Below are positions 2 to 51,303 of a DNA stretch of 64,000 nt, piece after piece. The DNA lies in sequence record SRR20825006_2737; one strand, 5' to 3'. Below the pieces are notes generated by a model. That model was given only the letters and a program-made list of their open reading frames with translations. It was not told the DNA's origin and ran no database searches. The position numbers were made by a program, and so were the translations under genes. The first letter of the stretch is position 1, and every line of letters starts with the position of its first letter.

Positions 2-1213
2 CTGGTCGTCATCGCGATCATTGGAGTCCTGGTTGGACTGTTACTGCCCGCCGTGCAAGCGGCCCGAGAGGCTGCACGCCGCATGAGCTGCAGCAACAAT
101 TTCAAACAACTGGGTTTGGCCCTGCACAATTACCATTCTGCCTTCAATCAATTGCCGGTTCAGGGTGGTGGCACCGGGATCGGGTTGCAAAACAACCGTT
201 GGTGGCAAACAGGCAACGATTCCAGCCACGAATGCATGAGTGCATTGGTCGGACTGACATCCTTCTTCGAACAGCAAGGGCTGTGGGAGATGATCGCGAA
301 TCCCAGCACGTTGACCGTCACGGGAGCGGCACCGCCGGCAACCACCGGACTGACCAACCCACCACGCTGGCCCGCGATGGGACCGAACCCGAGAAATTAT
401 GCTCGCAACCCCGGATACATTCCTTGGTCGACGGACATTCCTACACTTCGTTGCCCCAGCGATCCTGGCAAAGGGCTGCCAGCCCTCGGAAGAACCAATT
501 ACGCACTGTGTCTCGGTGACTCACCTGGACAACAGCATCACCAAAGTCGAAACGGCGATCTCACACCCCGTACACAAAACTGGGCAATTGGAAACTACAA
601 CTCGGTTTCGCGAGGCGTTTTCATGATCCGGCGATCGGCCCGGTTCCGCGACATTTTGGATGGCCTTTCCAACACGATCGCGATGGGCGAAATCATCACT
701 GACCTGGGTGATCGAGACAAACGCTCGGCAGCCTCATGGCTTCGTCGAAGCTCCAATGCGGTGAACGACAACCCTTCGTTCTGCGTTGACAATAACGAAG
801 TCGATCCAGAGCGACCACAGTTTTGGTGCAACGGTGGCCCGAACTGCACCGACCCTGTAGTGCTTAGTTCCAACAATCATGAAGCGCGTGGAGCGAACTG
901 GGCAAACTTCCGTGCAATGTGCACTCAAATGTTCACCGTGCGTCCACCCAACGCAGAACTCTGCGTGGGTACATGGATCGACAGCAGTGGCACCCACACT
1001 GCCAGCAGTCGACACCAGGGCGGCGTCCATGTTTTGCTGACCGATGGAGCAGTGAAATTCATGACAGAGTCAGTCGACGCAGGGAATCAGAGTGCCGGAG
1101 CCGTACGACGTGGTCAGTCTGGCCCACGTGCGCCAGGTTCAGCCAGCCCGTACGGACTTTGGGGATCGCTCGGGACCAAAGCTTCTCGCGAAACGATCGA
1201 GACTGAGTTTTAA
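2..1213 (+). CDS. DUF1559 prepilin-type N-terminal cleavage / H-X9-DG domain protein (5' truncated by window edge)
   Basis: Frame from nt 2 reads [45 protein letters not shown]; also contains CPSD, DGLSNT and [14 protein letters not shown] motifs. Confidence 0.92.
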
Positions 1214-47953: not shown

Positions 47954-48649
47954 ATGCGCGAAGAAATAAAGAACATCGACTGGTTGAACGTGTTCGACCA
48001 AGAACCGGACGTTGGCCTAACGGTCGTCGAGGACAATGGCCAGATCATCCACTTCAACCAAGCCGCCCTTCGCTTGTTCGGCGTCGACGACGAAGACTTG
48101 CTCGGTAAAAGTCTTCACGACGTTTTTGCGGAGGAATACGTGCAAGAACGAATGTCATGGGTCCGGGAAGTCATCGACACCAACAAAGCGCTTCGAGCGA
48201 CCCATATCTATTGCGGCCGAATGTTGGTCTCGTCGTTCTATCCGCACCGCGATGGCGATCGAAATTTCGCGATCGTGCTGACCCGTCTGGATGGCATGCT
48301 GCCTGATGGTGACATCAAGGACACACAGAGTCAGTTCATCGATTTGGGTCCATTGTCGGTACTCAGTCCTCGTGAGCTGGAAGTGCTGGTCTTGCTGGGG
48401 CAGGGCAACAGCGTCCCCGAAGTTTCGCGTTTGCTTTACCGCAGCCCGCGGACAATCGAGCGTCACAAAACCGAAATCGGCCACAAGCTTGGCGTTTCAT
48501 CGATCGCGCAGCTCACTCGCTTGGTCGCTCAGGCCGGTTTGAAACCGGAACACCTGCCACTGCAGCGATTCAACGCTGTCCCGAAGCCTCACCAATGCAC
48601 GCCAGACTTGTTGCCAGTCAACATCGAAGCCTCCACGTCATCCGCCTGA
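47954..48649 (+). CDS. PAS + LuxR-type HTH transcriptional regulator
   Basis: FNQAALRLFG..LLGKS PAS motif; LSPRELEVL..SPRTIERHK..KLG HTH. Confidence 0.85.
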   Translation: MREEIKNIDWLNVFDQEPDVGLTVVEDNGQIIHFNQAALRLFGVDDEDLLGKSLHDVFAEEYVQERMSWVREVIDTNKALRATHIYCGRMLVSSFYPHRDGDRNFAIVLTRLDGMLPDGDIKDTQSQFIDLGPLSVLSPRELEVLVLLGQGNSVPEVSRLLYRSPRTIERHKTEIGHKLGVSSIAQLTRLVAQAGLKPEHLPLQRFNAVPKPHQCTPDLLPVNIEASTSSA

Positions 48650-48732
48650 TCGAACCCATCGACAGACTTTCGTGTCCCCAAGTTCACGGAAGCCAATCCA
48701 GGCGATACACTTCTGCCATCACACCGACTGAT

Positions 48733-48817
48733 GCCCAGGTGGTGGAATTGGCAGACACAGGGGACTTAAAATCCCCCGGACGTTTAGTCCTTGCGGGTTC
48801 GAGTCCCGCCCTGGGTA
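48733..48817 (+). tRNA. tRNA-Leu (anticodon TAA), CCA not encoded
   Basis: GCCCAGG acceptor stem, GGAATTGGCAGAC D-loop, GGGGA-CTTAAAA-TCCCC anticodon arm, long variable arm, GGTTCGAGTCC T-arm. Confidence 0.96.
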
Positions 48818-49300
48818 CTGATGAGTGCCGTCGCACGGTATCGCGGCGAGTAGAACTGCGGTTTTCACTGGTCTTTCAACAGTTACCCATTCCACCCCGT
48901 CGTTCGTCTTCGCAGTTCGCTACTGCGAAGTGGGGTGCATTTTGGGGTGGGACACTCTTTGTTGCAGGCGGATGCATGACCGATCAGCAACATTCCAGCG
49001 CGCAGAAATGACTCGTTGTTGATCTTTTGTGAATTGCCGAGGACTTTTCGCCGAGTCTTTGTGTGCAACGAAGCACCCTCATTCGCCGCTTCGAAGAGCT
49101 CACCTTGTTGACCGCCGAATAGCAGCTTGTTGCTGGGTAATTACCCCCGCCGATGAAACGTACAACGAGGGCACCGGGTCCGCCCTAGAGTCACAACTGG
49201 CTAATTCGGTGCTGGCAGATCTTCAAGCTACAAGACAGAAGCACCGTAAACGGGTGTCATCACGAAGCCGCTTTCAATTGCTGTGAAAAGGCTTTGGCTC

Positions 49301-49543
49301 TCAGAAGTAGCTTGCCTTCTTCGAACCGCACACTATTCCCTGCGGTAAAAAAACTTGTTTGCTCGTAGCGACTCGATCGTCAATTATGACATCAAGCCGG
49401 CCCGTGTTGGACTTTTCAGACTGCTTTGGGAATTCACGCAGCACGACGAAGTCAGGACCAACCTGTGCCAATGAGTAAACTTGACCGGCCAGAAACAGCT
49501 TGATCACGACTTGTGCCGAGTAAGGACTTCGTCTTCTAACCAT
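49301..49543 (-). CDS. Small beta-rich hypothetical protein (80 aa), head-to-head with the kinase-like gene
   Basis: MVRRRSPYSAQVVIKLFLAGQVYSLAQVGPDFVVLRE...FLPQGI; its ATG is the complement of CAT at 49541-49543. Confidence 0.55.
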   Translation of the reverse strand: MVRRRSPYSAQVVIKLFLAGQVYSLAQVGPDFVVLREFPKQSEKSNTGRLDVIIDDRVATSKQVFLPQGIVCGSKKASYF

Positions 49544-50057
49544 GGACCAGTTGACATCAGAGGAACGAGCGTCGGCGTACTGCAAAAAACGATGTTCAGT
49601 ACCTGATTTTGGCAATCTGCTGGGAATGGGCCAAGAGGGGTCTGTCTGGCCTACAGATAATGAAACCGCAATAAAGGTATTCGACCGGGAACGAAACTTC
49701 AATTCTGAAGTCAGTTGCTACGAAATCCTCCGAGACAACCAAGTTTACGAAATCGATGGATTCACGATTCCCCACTTGATAGACAGCGATTCAGAGCTTC
49801 TTGTCGTCGAGATGACGATTGTCGCTCCTCCATTTATTCTCGACTTTGGAAAAGCCTACATCAACCAACGACCGGATTTCTCTGAATCGGTAATGGAATA
49901 CTACGAGCAAGAGCGAGCAGAAATGTTTGAGGGTAATTGGGACTTGGTTGACTCAGCCGTGTCGTCGCTTGAGCAATTCGGGATTTTCTATTGGGACGCG
50001 AGACCCGGCAATATCGATTGCCGGAATCACCCGCTGGCAAAGCAGAACGACGGATGA
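49542..50057 (+). CDS. Minimal protein-kinase-like protein (171 aa) with atypical motif order
   Basis: LGMGQEGSV Gly-loop, AIK, helix C Glu, ILDFGKA at aa 99-105, GIFYWDARPGNI at aa 147-158. Confidence 0.7.
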   Translation: MDQLTSEERASAYCKKRCSVPDFGNLLGMGQEGSVWPTDNETAIKVFDRERNFNSEVSCYEILRDNQVYEIDGFTIPHLIDSDSELLVVEMTIVAPPFILDFGKAYINQRPDFSESVMEYYEQERAEMFEGNWDLVDSAVSSLEQFGIFYWDARPGNIDCRNHPLAKQNDG

Positions 50058-50144
50058 ATGTCGCCTGCACTTGTTCATCCGACGAATTGCAGAGGCTGTC
50101 CTCGGACCACTGAATTGGTAAGCACAGTTCTTTCAGTGTCGCTC

Positions 50145-50196
50145 AAGAAAAAAGCCGCTTCGGCGTGAGCGGTGATCGCTGACGCTGAAACGGCTT
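50145..50196 (-). terminator. Rho-independent terminator for the DUF3500 gene
   Basis: aagaaaaaagccg...cggctt long hairpin; the A-run on + is a U-tail on -. Confidence 0.65.
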
Positions 50197-50256
50197 GGAT
50201 GATTCGCGAGACTCGATCGGATGAAGAGCGAGTCTTTTTGAAAGAGTCGTCGTCGC

Positions 50257-51303
50257 TCAGGGAGCGACTGGCAAATCGAAGTCGCCAGACAAGTCTCGGT
50301 AGACGCAGTGAATGTGGTTGGCCGGATTGCCCGCCGGATCGGCTTGCGTGTTCACAAACTCGATCAAGAAACGTTCGCCTTGCACGCGGTAGTAGTGGCC
50401 GATGCCGGGCTCAAGGGCTCCGGCCCAGGCAAAGTGAACCTTGCTCCAACCGTCCGACTCAATCTGTTGCGACCGTTCGGCAGCGACTTCCTCGGGTGCG
50501 ACTTGGACATACAAGTCGACCAAATCTCGAAGTTGCTTTTGTTGATCCGGGTTCAAACTCGAGTAAGCAATCCCTTCGGGTTCCCCAACTTCAGGTTGAG
50601 GCTCGCCAGCGAATCGAATTTCAGCCAAAGCTTCTTCCGCGAATCGGGCGACTTTGATCTGGTTGGCATCCAACGAGTTCACAAGCTTGAACGCGAGCTG
50701 TTCTTCTTGGTTCAAAACTGCGGTGCCCTTGCCGAGCGTGACGCTGGTTTCGTTTTTTACGACGGCGGGGTTGGTCGCCATGAATTGCGGTGTGGAATCA
50801 ACCACCTTTCCACCACGGCAGACAAAGTTGAGCGACAAGTGGTGGCCTTCGAATGACAATCCCCATCGTGCGTCTTCGCCCTCCGCTTTGACATCGCCAA
50901 ACAACGTGACGTAGTAGCGTTGTGGGTTACGTTCCCAAGTTCCTTTACCAGCTTCCATCTCGTTGAGGACTTCCTCCAGCAACATGATCCGGTTGGCTTT
51001 GCTGTAACCTGCTTCGCTGAGTGCGGAACGAAGAAGGCGCAAAGCGGCCGTTCGCTGAGCATCATTCATCTGCTCGAGCATCAAGCCTTTGCGTTCCTTC
51101 TTTGGAATGAAATGCCAACCGACTCGCTTGGGCGAATCGAACGCCATCACAGCGTCAGCCTTTTGCTCCGTTGTCAGCGTATCCACAAACGCGACGGCAA
51201 AGGTTTGCATTTGTTCGGCGGGAGAAGCCGCCAGCTTCCAACCTGCGAGGCCGACGACCGCGACGGCGAAAAGAGAAAGCGTGGCAAAACGAATTTTGTT
51301 CAT
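50257..51303 (-). CDS. DUF3500 domain protein, secreted
   Basis: WHFIP..RKGL, LSEAGYSK, WGLSFEGHHLSLN, YYRVQG, NHIHCVYRD. Confidence 0.85.
   Translation of the reverse strand: MNKIRFATLSLFAVAVVGLAGWKLAASPAEQMQTFAVAFVDTLTTEQKADAVMAFDSPKRVGWHFIPKKERKGLMLEQMNDAQRTAALRLLRSALSEAGYSKANRIMLLEEVLNEMEAGKGTWERNPQRYYVTLFGDVKAEGEDARWGLSFEGHHLSLNFVCRGGKVVDSTPQFMATNPAVVKNETSVTLGKGTAVLNQEEQLAFKLVNSLDANQIKVARFAEEALAEIRFAGEPQPEVGEPEGIAYSSLNPDQQKQLRDLVDLYVQVAPEEVAAERSQQIESDGWSKVHFAWAGALEPGIGHYYRVQGERFLIEFVNTQADPAGNPANHIHCVYRDLSGDFDLPVAP

What the first reader, a model, noticed from the sequence alone, without database searches (positions are those of the whole stretch)
49542..50057. Miniature kinase-like protein with DFG placed before the catalytic loop
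Seen: G28-x-G30-xx-G33-x-V35, AIK (K45), E56 and a hinge-like VVEM, then ILDFGKA (D101), then GIFYWDARPGNI (D152/N157) only 14 residues from the C-terminus. Established: in Hanks-type and most PKL kinases the HxDxxxxN catalytic loop precedes DFG. Here no DFG follows the catalytic loop, and the C-lobe is essentially absent. Inference: an internally permuted minimal kinase fold in which the early DFG fills the Mg-binding role, or a truncated pseudokinase.
Basis: partly seen in the sequence, partly recalled or inferred. Interest (0 to 1): 0.8.

Follow-up and report, generated by a model that had tools for sequence, protein, structure and literature searches.

The report
Rewired mini-kinase with small barrel partner
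A 171-residue bacterial protein keeps every catalytic residue of a protein kinase, but its magnesium-binding DFG segment comes before the catalytic loop and most of the lower lobe is missing; it is almost always encoded head-to-head with a small barrel protein predicted to bind it, so if confirmed it is an unusually small and oddly wired kinase core.

Summary
The ORF (49542-50057, +, 171 aa) and all motifs are real. It is not a truncated copy. It belongs to a large, unnamed family, mainly from Planctomycetota: 829 clusters at 50% identity, median length 165 aa, and at most 33 residues after the catalytic loop. In 317 non-redundant members G30, G33, K45, E56, D101, F102, D152 and N157 are each conserved in at least 307.

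Three indirect lines put the early DFG segment in the active site:
- Profile comparison with ordinary Ser/Thr kinases aligns residues 20-165 up to the point where their DFG strand begins. Residues 97-107 align separately onto that DFG strand (0 of 200 shuffles reach the score).
- Coevolution couples residues 96-111 to the glycine loop, helix C and the catalytic loop.
- A confident AlphaFold2 model (pLDDT 96.8) has four two-residue strands spaced as canonical beta6 to beta9.

I could not inspect coordinates.

New finding: an ~80-aa beta-barrel gene (49301-49543, -) lies immediately upstream in 123 of 124 loci, usually with start codons overlapping as CATG. The pair passed a complex prediction (0.90 against best control 0.59).

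Function is unknown. A kinase-based conflict or toxin-antitoxin-like cassette is my leading guess. Only PADLOC lists the family ("ST_Kinase").

The parts
49542..50057 (+). Gene for the 171-aa mini kinase-like protein (stop codon included)
   Evidence: ORF list and translation. PADLOC ST_Kinase E 8.5e-33. 829 family clusters. AlphaFold2 pLDDT 96.8.
49623..49646 (+). Glycine-rich loop, G28-x-G30-xx-G33-x-V35
   Evidence: G28 307, G30 316, G33 315, V35 281 of 317. Aligned to the G-loop of Ser/Thr kinases.
49674..49676 (+). K45, the AxK lysine of beta3
   Evidence: 316 of 317. Aligned to the VAxK lysine of Hanks kinases.
49707..49709 (+). E56, the helix C glutamate
   Evidence: 315 of 317. Lies in helix 50-65 of the model. 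Aligned to the helix C Glu in PDB kinases.
49830..49862 (+). Transposed beta8-DFG-beta9 segment (P97-F-I-L-D101-F-G-K-A-Y-I107), placed directly after the hinge
   Evidence: P97 315, D101 316, F102 315 of 317; G103 is G in 157 and A in 157. HHalign onto the DFG columns of Ser/Thr kinases: score 20.2, 0 of 200 shuffles reach it. Coevolution with the G-loop, helix C and the catalytic loop.
49980..50015 (+). beta6, catalytic loop, beta7 (G147-I-F-Y-W-D152-A-R-P-G-N157-I158); the protein ends 13 residues later
   Evidence: D152 311 of 311 and N157 307 of 308 ungapped. Aligned to the HRDxKPxN loop of Ser/Thr kinases. The structural alignments to RIO and APH end here.
49301..49543 (-). Gene for the 80-aa all-beta partner protein (stop codon included), transcribed divergently
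   Evidence: Present next to the kinase gene in 123 of 124 loci with enough upstream DNA. AlphaFold2 pLDDT 89.4, six strands. Complex score 0.90 against best control 0.59.
49541..49544 (.). CATG, where the two divergent start codons share their central AT
   Evidence: Read. The same overlap occurs in 104 of 135 divergent pairs.

Best explanation
This is an intact member of a large, mostly Planctomycetota family of ~165-residue protein-kinase-like enzymes with a rearranged chain order. Its order is: normal N-lobe (G-loop, K45, helix C with E56, beta4, beta5, hinge V88-M91); then immediately the beta8-DFG-beta9 segment (residues 97-107, D101); then two helices in the alphaD and alphaE positions; then beta6, the catalytic loop (D152, N157) and beta7; then the stop.

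In the fold, the early DFG strand is inferred to pair with beta7. That would put D101 beside N157 and K45 to bind Mg-ATP, so all catalytic parts of a kinase are present in about 140 residues. The activation segment and helices alphaF to alphaI are absent.

The enzyme is inferred to work as a tight 1:1 complex with the ~80-aa beta-barrel protein encoded head-to-head with it. That partner is predicted to sit on the hinge, beta1/G-loop and end-of-catalytic-loop face, at the mouth of the nucleotide and substrate cleft. There it could gate ATP or substrate access, or present a substrate.

The pair behaves as a self-contained, patchily distributed two-gene cassette. My leading guess is a conflict or toxin-antitoxin-like module in which the kinase is the effector and the barrel its regulator.

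Shown: the sequence features, conservation, family size and length, synteny, and profile homology. Inferred: the 3D position of D101, catalytic activity, physical binding and biological role.
For: Family and length
- 829 clusters at E<=1e-3 and 494 at E<=1e-10.
- 270 database homologues have median length 165 aa; the tail after the catalytic loop has median 3 and maximum 33 aa.

Catalytic residues are near-invariant in 317 non-redundant sequences.

Kinase homology
- HHalign against 20 Hanks kinase domains: probability 98.2%, E 2.8e-14. Query 20-165 matches template columns 12-149 and stops at the strand before DFG.
- All 16 PDB sequence hits are kinase N-lobes in register, though weak (E 0.3-0.9).
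- Foldseek PDB gave 13 hits at E<=1e-3, all kinase-like: PsiK, APH(2''), RIO1/2, PRPK, CK2.
- VIA: RIOK1 Z 8.7 (rmsd 4.2, 125 aligned, model 3-164 against chain 163-336); Rio2 Z 7.9 (rmsd 3.4, 125 aligned, model 1-164 against chain 70-230).

DFG transposition
- The alternative HHalign hit places 97-107 on template columns 148-158, the DFG columns.
- Residues 93-112 searched alone land on the same columns with score 20.2. The null from 200 column shuffles has mean 9.4, sd 1.7, max 14.0, and 0 reach the observed score.
- Pseudolikelihood coevolution (309 sequences, Neff 266) ranks 62-108 #2, 31-104 #9, 104-150 #10, 59-107 #13, 96-159 #20, 104-153 #24, 32-104 #25, 52-103 #26, 103-150 #28 and 98-156 #49 among 8515 pairs.
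- 15 of the top 50 couplings join 96-111 to the G-loop, K45-helix C or the catalytic loop, against 4.0 expected (hypergeometric p 5e-6).
- The model is confident (pLDDT 96.8, pTM 0.90) and has two-residue strands at 98-99, 106-107, 148-149 and 158-159.

Partner
- Found in 123 of 124 loci, 122 of them divergent.
- Complex ipSAE was 0.90 in each of three runs; the best of 3 controls was 0.59. That mark was reached by 51 of 78 solved complexes and 2 of 108 mismatched pairs. Runs agree in at least 92% of contacts and partner pLDDT is at least 89.
- No similar complex is known to me, so a pass from memory of solved structures is unlikely.

Cassette behaviour
- 8 of 401 sampled genomes of the phylum carry it.
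- Flanking genes differ between loci. Of 116 flanking ORFs, no Pfam family recurs more than 3 times; integrase appears 3 times.
- cas3 is adjacent or two genes away in 3 loci (L066, L057, L015).
- The kinase decays more often than the partner: 17 against 2 among 131 loci.
Against: - I never saw coordinates, so D101's place in the active site rests on indirect evidence.
- The exact strand pairs I predicted beforehand (98/99 with 158/159, and 106/107 with 148/149) mostly rank low in the coevolution list. For example 98-158 is #8199 and 106-149 is #5003. Only neighbouring pairs (96-159, 98-156, 99-158 at #150) score.
- The residue classes used in the enrichment test were fixed after I had seen the coupling list.
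- The alternative HHalign hit covers only 11 columns (E 0.019 in the full run, probability 2.4%).
- Structural Z scores of 7-9 lie in the range the tool calls middling.
- No Pfam or NCBIfam model matches the window protein even at E<=10.
- In the complex test, the control that kept the partner and swapped the kinase still scored 0.59, so the partner is somewhat sticky. The job also carried ATP and Mg, unlike the calibration set.
- The genes are divergent, not an operon as in typical toxin-antitoxin pairs.
- The 17:2 decay asymmetry is only modestly beyond the 2:1 expected from gene length (my hand-calculated binomial p is about 0.03). It also includes near-duplicate loci (L079/L080, L101/L102).
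- The window locus sits among housekeeping genes, not in a defence island.
- No relative was found in phage, plasmid or viral-contig collections.
Confidence: 0.72

Rival explanations
1. The early 'DFG' is only a structural motif of the region after the hinge. The protein lacks a metal-binding Asp and is a nucleotide-binding pseudokinase or scaffold for the barrel protein.
For: - No coordinates were inspected.
- G103 is Ala in half of the family (157 of 317).
- The residue two after the catalytic Asp is not a conserved Lys.
- The alternative HHalign hit is short (11 columns).
Against: - D101 (316 of 317) and F102 (315 of 317) are as conserved as K45, D152 and N157. A scaffold would not need the whole catalytic set.
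- The segment matches the DFG columns of real kinases well beyond shuffles (0 of 200).
- Its neighbours co-vary with the G-loop, helix C and the catalytic loop.
Confidence: 0.1
2. This copy is a truncated or decayed fragment of an ordinary longer kinase. Its real DFG and C-lobe were lost, or lie downstream in another frame.
For: - The nearest held genome and some related strains do carry broken copies of this gene.
- About 15 of 145 loci have internal stops or frameshifts.
Against: - The window copy is one open frame with all motifs.
- 239 of 270 homologues end within 33 aa of the catalytic loop, median 3.
- No longer form appeared among the best 150 of an unrestricted search (longest 309 aa, with the extra length N-terminal), nor in the 313-2000 aa search (weak evidence).
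- Downstream there are only ~200 nt before the convergent DUF3500 gene.
Confidence: 0.02
3. It is a small-molecule kinase of the aminoglycoside/choline-kinase type, acting on an antibiotic or metabolite rather than a protein. The barrel would be a substrate-binding or regulatory subunit that replaces the missing helical C-lobe.
For: - The best structural matches include APH(2''), PsiK and methylthioribose kinase.
- 4 of 86 members hit Pfam APH weakly.
- One source names a homologue 'Phosphotransferase enzyme family'.
- The substrate-binding part of the C-lobe is absent, so a partner could supply it.
Against: - Sequence profiles are closer to Hanks Ser/Thr kinases (probability 98.2%; 7 of 86 weak Pkinase hits).
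- PADLOC's curators labelled the family a Ser/Thr kinase.
- No metabolic or resistance genes recur beside it.
Confidence: 0.12
4. The roles are reversed, as in the TakA-TglT type of system (recalled). The barrel would be the toxin or effector, and the kinase would neutralise or switch it by phosphorylating its nearly invariant Ser9.
For: - S9 of the partner is conserved in at least 90% of 90 sequences.
- Partner residues 6-10 lie in the predicted interface, next to the G-loop and the end of the catalytic loop.
Against: - The kinase gene is broken or truncated with the partner intact in 17 loci, against 2 for the reverse. The same is seen in near relatives of this strain. A toxin left without its neutraliser should not persist.
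- Kinase residues 152 and 101-104 are not in the confident contact list. The tool states that unnamed residues are uncertain.
Confidence: 0.06

Closest known systems
Hanks-type (eukaryotic-like) Ser/Thr protein kinases, Pfam PF00069
   Same: - Same N-lobe and same catalytic residues: GxGxxG, AxK, helix C Glu, a DxxxxN catalytic loop, and a DF[GA] segment with flanking strands.
- Profile-profile probability 98.2%.
   Different: - The DFG segment lies before alphaD and alphaE instead of after beta7.
- There is no activation segment and no alphaF to alphaI.
- It reads Y-x-D rather than HRD.
- No Pfam hit for the window protein at E<=10.
- About 165 aa instead of about 260.
RIO kinases and Bud32/PRPK (minimal atypical kinases)
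   Same: - Best structural matches: RIOK1 Z 8.7, Rio2 Z 7.9, PRPK Z 7.3.
- They also lack a classical activation loop and work in complexes (recalled).
   Different: - RIO and Bud32 keep the metal-binding Asp after the catalytic loop and keep C-lobe helices (recalled).
- The alignments here stop just before that point.
- No RIO-specific N-terminal helix or motifs were seen.
Minimal bacterial effector kinases that need a bound partner (OspG/NleH, HopBF1; recalled, not fetched)
   Same: They are about 200 aa kinases with a reduced C-lobe. OspG is activated by a bound protein (E2~ubiquitin).
   Different: - They have the normal motif order and are injected effectors of pathogens.
- This family is chromosomal in free-living Planctomycetota, and its partner is encoded beside it.
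PADLOC model PDLC01137 'ST_Kinase' (Ser/Thr kinase beside a putative adaptation module next to I-C CRISPR systems in Rhodopirellula)
   Same: It is the same family: E 8.5e-33 over residues 24-159, against profile positions 21-161 of 162.
   Different: - The catalogue entry says nothing of the motif order or of the partner.
- A CRISPR neighbourhood holds for only 3 of about 66 genome loci examined, and not for this window.
Kinase toxin-antitoxin and abortive-infection modules such as HipBA (recalled)
   Same: - A two-gene cassette with a kinase and a small tightly bound partner.
- Patchy distribution, and frequent decay of the kinase gene.
   Different: - HipA is a large kinase with normal motif order, HipB is a DNA-binding HTH protein, and the genes form an operon.
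- Here the genes are divergent with overlapping start codons, and the partner is a beta-barrel.
PilZ domain (for the partner)
   Same: A small six-stranded barrel. The best Foldseek hit is the Alg44 PilZ domain (E 0.061, probability 1.00); VIA Z is 6.1 (rmsd 3.0, 67 aligned).
   Different: - No Pfam PilZ hit in 90 members.
- The c-di-GMP motifs RxxxR and D/NxSxxG (recalled) are not conserved; only S9, V12 and L16 reach 90%.
- Z is about 6, within the tool's noise range, and tail-tube, Hcp and flavin-reductase barrels score alike.

Membership tests
Protein kinase-like superfamily (catalytic core) | Glycine-rich loop, beta3 Lys and helix C Glu | tested here: met
   G30 316, G33 315, K45 316, E56 315 of 317. 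Aligned in register to PDB kinases and to Hanks kinases.
Protein kinase-like superfamily (catalytic core) | Catalytic loop Asp and Asn (DxxxxN) | tested here: met
   D152 311 of 311 and N157 307 of 308 ungapped. Aligned to HRDxKPxN.
Protein kinase-like superfamily (catalytic core) | Metal-binding Asp of a DFG-type segment positioned in the active site | tested here: inconclusive
   The motif is present and invariant (D101 316 of 317) and matches the DFG columns. Coevolution places its neighbours at the active site. No coordinates were seen.
Hanks-type protein kinase (Pfam PF00069) | Motif order: catalytic loop, then beta7, then beta8-DFG, then activation segment | tested here: not met
   DFG is at 101-103 and the catalytic loop at 152-157. 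Nothing but 14 residues follows N157. The same holds across the family.
Hanks-type protein kinase (Pfam PF00069) | Score above the Pfam gathering threshold | tested here: not met
   No family at E<=10 for the window protein. 7 of 86 members give weak hits, best E 2.9e-4.
Hanks-type protein kinase (Pfam PF00069) | C-lobe helices alphaF to alphaI and the APE/activation segment | tested here: not met
   The model ends after the strand at 158-159. The HHalign match ends at template column 149 of 282.
RIO / Bud32 atypical kinases | Fold similarity over the whole domain, including the metal-binding Asp after the catalytic loop | tested here: inconclusive
   Z 7.3-8.7 over model 1-166, ending before the targets' metal-binding Asp (the targets' residue numbers are recalled). 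No sequence-family hit.
PADLOC ST_Kinase (PDLC01137) | Match to the family profile over its full length | tested here: met
   E 8.5e-33, 111.6 bits, profile positions 21-161 of 162.
PADLOC ST_Kinase (PDLC01137) | Neighbourhood of a type I-C CRISPR-Cas or adaptation module | tested here: not met
   The window neighbours are TPR, BamB-like, PAS-LuxR, tRNA-Leu, DUF3500, TruB and a methyltransferase. Among other loci, cas3 or cas8c is next to or near the module in L066, L057 and L015 only.
Type II toxin-antitoxin module | Two co-transcribed genes (an operon) | tested here: not met
   122 of 123 pairs are divergent.
Type II toxin-antitoxin module | Toxicity of one product neutralised by binding of the other | not testable with these tools
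   Only a predicted complex and the asymmetric gene decay bear on it.
PilZ domain (partner) | Pfam PilZ match and the c-di-GMP motifs RxxxR and D/NxSxxG | tested here: not met
   PilZ is not among the 18 families hit by any of the 90 members at E<=1. Only S9, V12 and L16 reach 90% conservation. The motif definitions are recalled.
PilZ domain (partner) | PilZ-like six-stranded barrel fold | tested here: inconclusive
   Alg44 PilZ: Foldseek E 0.061; VIA Z 6.1, rmsd 3.0, 67 aligned. Other barrels score the same.

The most novel reading that the evidence does not exclude
The family is a natural, non-circular permutation of the protein-kinase fold. The beta8-DFG-beta9 element has moved to just after the hinge, which gives the smallest self-contained, catalytically active kinase core known (about 140 residues).

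The core would work only as a heterodimer with a dedicated beta-barrel subunit. That subunit would stand in for the missing substrate-binding lobe, or would itself be phosphorylated on its nearly invariant Ser9.

The two genes share a CATG at their start codons, so each promoter lies inside the other gene. This would make their transcription mutually interfering, giving a new kind of kinase-based switch or conflict cassette.
Probability: 0.3. Interest if true: 0.85.

Novelty: new variant of a known kind. Interest (0 to 1): 0.78.

Why it matters
As far as I recall, and as far as my literature searches found, the order G-loop, Lys, Glu, catalytic loop, DFG holds in every described branch of the protein-kinase-like superfamily. 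It is the basis of motif-based kinase annotation.

- **Fold plasticity.** A large natural family with the DFG segment relocated and the lower lobe deleted would show that the catalytic core tolerates rewiring.
- **Minimal core.** It would define a lower size limit for a complete active site, giving a compact scaffold for engineering and for studying what the C-lobe contributes.
- **Annotation.** It would explain why about 800 sequence clusters are labelled 'hypothetical'.
- **The gene pair.** The obligate barrel partner and the overlapping divergent start codons point to an uncharacterised regulatory or conflict module in Planctomycetota, sometimes embedded in type I CRISPR-Cas loci.

Tried and rejected
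**Family libraries.**
- Pfam and NCBIfam gave nothing for either protein at E<=10.
- PHROGs gave only a weak 'kinase' hit at E 0.02.

**Coevolution methods.**
- Mean-field DCA on the full-length alignment was dominated by terminal-gap artefacts. It stayed noisy after trimming, so I used a pseudolikelihood model.

**Island boundaries and signals at this locus.**
- No tRNA-derived direct repeats flank the module.
- No sigma-70-like promoter was found in 48800-50400: 0 found against 0.8 expected.
- A logo of +-60 nt around the shared CATG in 102 distinct loci shows no conserved promoter-like motif.

**Mobile-element collections.** No relative in phages, plasmids (tblastn) or viral contigs.

**Longer or fused forms.** None at E<=1e-3 among 7998 candidates of 313-2000 aa. 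The tool calls this weak evidence.

**Expression.** No RNA holder is listed among the sequencing runs, so expression and transcript starts could not be examined.

**Literature.**
- Searches for a permuted or minimal kinase, for circular permutation in the kinase-like fold, for a Planctomycetes PilZ/kinase/toxin-antitoxin link, and for the Rhodopirellula CRISPR-linked kinase found nothing on this family (I saw listings and abstracts only).
- In PMC1079889 I read the two passages on circular permutation. They concern fold groups in general, not this fold.
- Supplementary files, where the PADLOC and CRISPR profile lists may describe the family, were not available.

**Other searches.**
- ESM Atlas: the nearest named clusters, YrbL-PhoP_reg and Phage_T7_kinase, score 0.93 with 150 and 166 shared features. 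These are leads only and I did not follow them.
- Earlier notes of this scan: nothing.
- Viral structure library: 17 hits at E<=1e-3, nearly all annotated protein kinases, at TM 0.30-0.41 (query-normalised); no closer relative.
Full report
**1. The observation**

The window holds an ATG-started ORF at 49542..50057 on the + strand encoding 171 residues.
- G28-x-G30-xx-G33-x-V35
- A43-I-K45
- E56
- V88-V-E-M91
- I99-L-D101-F-G-K-A105
- G147-I-F-Y-W-D152-A-R-P-G-N157-I158, with N157 14 residues from the end

G+C falls to 0.46-0.49 over the gene, against 0.55-0.60 in the flanks. A tRNA-Leu(TAA) gene lies upstream at 48733-48818.

**2. It is a family, not a truncated copy**

- Pfam and NCBIfam give nothing at E<=10.
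- The PADLOC model PDLC01137 'ST_Kinase' matches at E 8.5e-33 over nearly its whole 162-position profile.
- An exhaustive HMMER search of 1.84 billion cluster representatives found 829 relatives at E<=1e-3 and 494 at E<=1e-10. The best 150 are mostly 160-170 aa and their matches run to within a few residues of the C-terminus.
- Of the 270 database homologues collected, 239 reach the end of the family model. Their tail beyond it has median 3 and maximum 33 residues, and the median protein length is 165.
- A search limited to proteins of 313-2000 aa found no relative (weak evidence, by the tool's own note).
- Sources call these proteins 'hypothetical'. One UniRef name reads 'Phosphotransferase enzyme family'.
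- The 58 loci found in species-representative genomes are nearly all titled as Planctomycetota lineages: Pirellulales, Planctomycetia, Phycisphaerae.
- In an even sample of the phylum, 8 of 401 genomes carry the gene (7 of 244 among the high-quality ones), one copy each.

**3. Conservation**

I chose 86 near-full-length members from the listed hits, dropping fragments and N-terminally extended entries. In these, G30, G33, Y60, P77, D101 and D152 are invariant. G28, V35, K45, E56, E90, V94, P97, F102 and N157 reach at least 90%.

A larger set was built in steps: 395 sequences from database proteins and loci, then 340 with at least 85% coverage, then 317 at no more than 95% identity. Counts in that set:

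| Residue | Conserved |
|---|---|
| G30 | 316 of 317 |
| G33 | 315 of 317 |
| K45 | 316 of 317 |
| E56 | 315 of 317 |
| P97 | 315 of 317 |
| D101 | 316 of 317 |
| F102 | 315 of 317 |
| G103 | G in 157, A in 157 |
| D152 | 311 of 311 ungapped |
| N157 | 307 of 308 ungapped |

Such selection on the complete catalytic set argues for an active enzyme rather than a pseudokinase. This is an inference.

**4. Kinase homology and where the DFG belongs**

*Sequence against solved structures.* A profile search of PDB sequences gave only weak hits (E 0.32-0.90). All 16 are receptor kinases, aligned in register on the G-loop, AxK and helix C Glu.

*Fold.* AlphaFold2 on the 86-sequence alignment gave a very confident model (mean pLDDT 96.8, pTM 0.90). 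Its elements are:
- a helix at 6-16
- strands at 28-30, 33-38 and 42-47
- a helix at 50-65
- strands at 79-83 and 88-92
- two-residue strands at 98-99 and 106-107
- helices at 115-128 and 133-144
- two-residue strands at 148-149 and 158-159

*Fold searches.*
- Foldseek against the PDB gave 13 hits at E<=1e-3, all kinase-like: PsiK, APH(2''), RIO1/2, PRPK, CK2.
- VIA-align gave RIOK1 Z 8.7 (rmsd 4.2, 125 aligned, model 3-164 against chain 163-336), Rio2 Z 7.9 (rmsd 3.4, 125 aligned, model 1-164 against chain 70-230) and APH(2'') Z 7.8. These values are middling by the tool's own scale.
- The aligned ranges end where, as I recall, those enzymes' catalytic loop and beta7 end, just before their metal-binding Asp.

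*Profile against ordinary kinases.* I extracted Hanks kinase domains from two planctomycete genomes. Of 30 loci fetched, 20 passed my open-frame and motif filter. I compared their alignment with the family using HHalign.
- The main alignment (probability 98.2%, E 2.8e-14, 125 columns) runs from query residue 20 to 165 and from template column 12 to 149. That spans the G-loop through 'GIiHRDiKPgNIl' and stops at the 'vK' that begins the DFG strand.
- The best alternative alignment puts query 97-107 (P-F-I-L-D-F-G-K-A-Y-I) on template columns 148-158 (v-K-l-t-D-F-G-l-A), exactly the next element of the ordinary kinase. It is short (11 columns, E 0.019).
- As a control I searched the sub-alignment of residues 93-112 alone. 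It lands on the same columns with score 20.2. None of 200 column-shuffled versions exceeded 14.0 (mean 9.4, sd 1.7).

**5. Is D101 in the active site?**

The tools return no coordinates, so I tested contacts by coevolution. A pseudolikelihood model on 309 sequences (Neff 266, residues 24-159) gave sensible kinase contacts, such as 43-93, 46-88, 27-35 and 38-44.

Among 8515 pairs it also gave many couplings of the 96-111 segment:

| Coupled to | Pairs (rank) |
|---|---|
| G-loop | 31-104 (#9), 32-104 (#25), 36-104 (#60) |
| Helix C | 62-108 (#2), 59-107 (#13), 52-103 (#26), 59-104 (#35), 62-107 (#55), 65-105 (#84) |
| Catalytic loop and beta7 | 104-150 (#10), 96-159 (#20), 104-153 (#24), 103-150 (#28), 104-154 (#33), 111-156 (#48), 98-156 (#49) |

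Fifteen of the top 50 couplings link 96-111 with these three elements, against 4.0 expected (hypergeometric p 5e-6). Links of the segment to the rest of the protein are not enriched: 3 against 7.1 expected.

Caveats:
- I fixed the residue classes after seeing the list.
- The exact strand pairs I had written down beforehand (note) mostly rank low; only neighbouring pairs score.
- D101 is invariant and so carries no signal itself.

Two further points fit the same picture.
- The spacing of the four short strands around D101, D152 and N157 equals that of beta8, beta9, beta6 and beta7 in PKA. The PKA numbering is recalled.
- In the independent ESMFold2 complex model, kinase residues 92-96, 25-31 and 155-162 contact one partner surface, so the chain leaving the hinge lies beside beta7.

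Together these make the 'transposed DFG' reading the best supported. I put it at about 0.8 for the position of D101 and about 0.7 for the whole explanation.

**6.

On the minus strand, 49301-49543 encodes an 80-aa protein. Its ATG (49543-49541) overlaps the kinase ATG (49542-49544) within CCATGG.

*Co-occurrence.* I examined 145 loci: 7 genome regions fetched, 58 loci and 80. Of these, 124 have at least 330 nt upstream of the kinase match. A homologue of this small protein lies within 600 nt in 123 of the 124. It is divergent in 122 and co-directional in one (L066). The single miss, L077, has a degenerate kinase.

*Start-codon overlap.* In 104 of 135 divergent pairs the predicted start codons overlap in the same CATG manner, and 133 of 135 have 30 nt or fewer between starts. 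Each promoter must therefore lie inside the other gene. No conserved promoter-like motif showed in a logo of 102 distinct loci or in the pattern scan.

*What the partner is.*
- It has no Pfam family (0 for the window copy; scattered chance hits among 90 members) and no PDB sequence relative.
- AlphaFold2 predicts a six-stranded barrel (pLDDT 89.4, pTM 0.71).
- Its best structural matches are PilZ domains: Alg44 at Foldseek E 0.061, VIA Z 6.1, rmsd 3.0, 67 aligned. Tail-tube, Hcp and flavin-reductase barrels score alike, and Z about 6 is within noise.
- Only S9, V12 and L16 reach 90% conservation. The PilZ c-di-GMP motifs, as I recall them, are not conserved.

**7. Predicted complex**

- Kinase plus partner, with ATP and 2 Mg riding along, scored ipSAE 0.90 in each of three runs.
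- The controls scored 0.00, 0.00 and 0.59. The last kept the partner and replaced the kinase.
- The mark was reached in calibration by 51 of 78 solved complexes and 2 of 108 mismatched pairs. The tool notes these counts hold only roughly here, because of the riding ligands.
- The runs agree in at least 92% of contacts, and partner pLDDT is at least 89.
- The model supports binding; it does not show it.
- Confident contacts on the kinase: 22, 25-31, 37, 39-42, 69-70, 75, 77-78, 80, 92-96, 155-156, 159, 162.
- Confident contacts on the partner: 6-10, 12-14, 24-30, 34, 36, 50, 52, 54-55, 57, 59-60, 75-76.
- This is the hinge, beta1 and end-of-catalytic-loop face, at the mouth of the nucleotide cleft. 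From that position the partner could gate nucleotide or substrate access, stand in for missing C-lobe surface, or present its N-terminal tail (with S9) to the active site. I cannot tell which.

**8. Context and behaviour**

- *This window.* The neighbours are housekeeping-like: a TPR protein, a BamB-like propeller, a PAS-LuxR regulator, tRNA-Leu, DUF3500, TruB and a methyltransferase.
- *Other loci.* Of 116 ORFs flanking the pair in 64 genome loci, no Pfam family recurs more than three times. Phage integrase appears 3 times and DUF1501 3 times.
- *CRISPR-Cas.* Genes of this system flank a few loci. In L066 the pair sits between cas8c and cas3 of a type I-C system. L057 has a type I-G/U cas3 next to the partner. 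L015 has one two genes away. This agrees with the PADLOC description for a minority of loci only.
- *Tandem copies.* L047 carries two tandem copies of the pair.
- *Mobile elements.* No relative occurs in the phage, plasmid or viral-contig collections.
- *Decay.* Among 131 loci with both genes inside the contig, 112 have both intact. In 17 the kinase is broken or truncated and the partner intact. In 2 the partner match is short and the kinase intact.
- *Close relatives of this strain.* In the nearest held genome (G001) the orthologue is in three pieces, with two TAA stops in one of them. Contigs of four related strains carry the whole locus at about 97% identity. Two have T>C at 49543, which removes the kinase ATG and turns the partner's ATG into GTG. 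One has a 1-nt deletion at 49901 inside the kinase gene.
- *How strong the asymmetry is.* It is suggestive of a costly or toxic kinase and a harmless partner. It is only modestly beyond the 2:1 expected from gene length, and the loci are not all independent.

**9. Mechanism and comparison**

My best reading is a complete but rewired kinase active site in about 140 residues, active as a heterodimer with its barrel partner, forming a self-contained two-gene cassette of a conflict or toxin-antitoxin-like kind.

It works like a Hanks-type or RIO-type kinase in its chemistry. It fails membership of Pfam Pkinase on motif order, on the C-lobe and on score.

It resembles minimal partner-dependent kinases (OspG and Bud32, recalled) in needing a bound protein. 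It resembles kinase toxin-antitoxin modules in cassette behaviour, but not in gene arrangement or in the partner's fold.

The family's existence is catalogued in PADLOC. In five full-text searches I found no description of its motif order, its partner or the overlapping start codons.

**10. Verdict**

The truncated-pseudokinase alternative is rejected. The conserved partner and the gene architecture add to the interest. Inspecting the coordinates and a simple mutant and binding series would settle it.

Noticed in passing
window 49541-49544 and loci L012-L157: The divergent kinase and partner genes share the central AT of their start codons (CATG) in 104 of 135 pairs. 133 of 135 have 30 nt or fewer between starts. 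Each promoter must therefore lie within the other gene's coding region. No conserved promoter motif was seen.
   Followed up: partly
G001 (L019, L001, L002, L004) and coded runs X2, X8, X17 laid on window 48500-50500: Close relatives of this strain carry decayed kinase copies with an intact partner. G001 has the gene in three pieces, with two TAA stops in one. X2 and X8 have T>C at 49543, which removes the kinase ATG and gives the partner a GTG start. X17 has a 1-nt deletion at 49901.
   Followed up: partly
L066:1105-6959 (Tepidisphaeraceae MAG): The pair sits between cas8c and cas3 of a type I-C CRISPR-Cas locus, on the opposite strand. This is the only locus where the partner is co-directional and directly upstream of the kinase. 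L057 and L015 have a type I-G/U cas3 beside or near the pair.
   Followed up: partly
L047:2907-4474 (Aeoliella sp. SH292 chromosome): There are two tandem copies of the partner-kinase pair, each divergent.
   Followed up: no
family alignment, residues 103-104 and 153-154 (window 49848-49853, 49998-50003): Two co-varying subfamilies exist: D-F-G-K with D-[AP]-[KR] in the catalytic loop, and D-F-A-G/S with D-V-[SNH]. A positive charge may be supplied from either position.
   Followed up: no
window 48819-49300: About 480 nt between tRNA-Leu and the partner gene's stop have no recognised gene. An 85-aa ORF at 49029-49286 was not examined. No tRNA-derived direct repeat marks an island boundary.
   Followed up: partly
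ESM Atlas look-up of P0001: The nearest named clusters by language-model features are YrbL-PhoP_reg (PF10707) and Phage_T7_kinase (PF27024), both at score 0.93. Their motif order was not checked.
   Followed up: no
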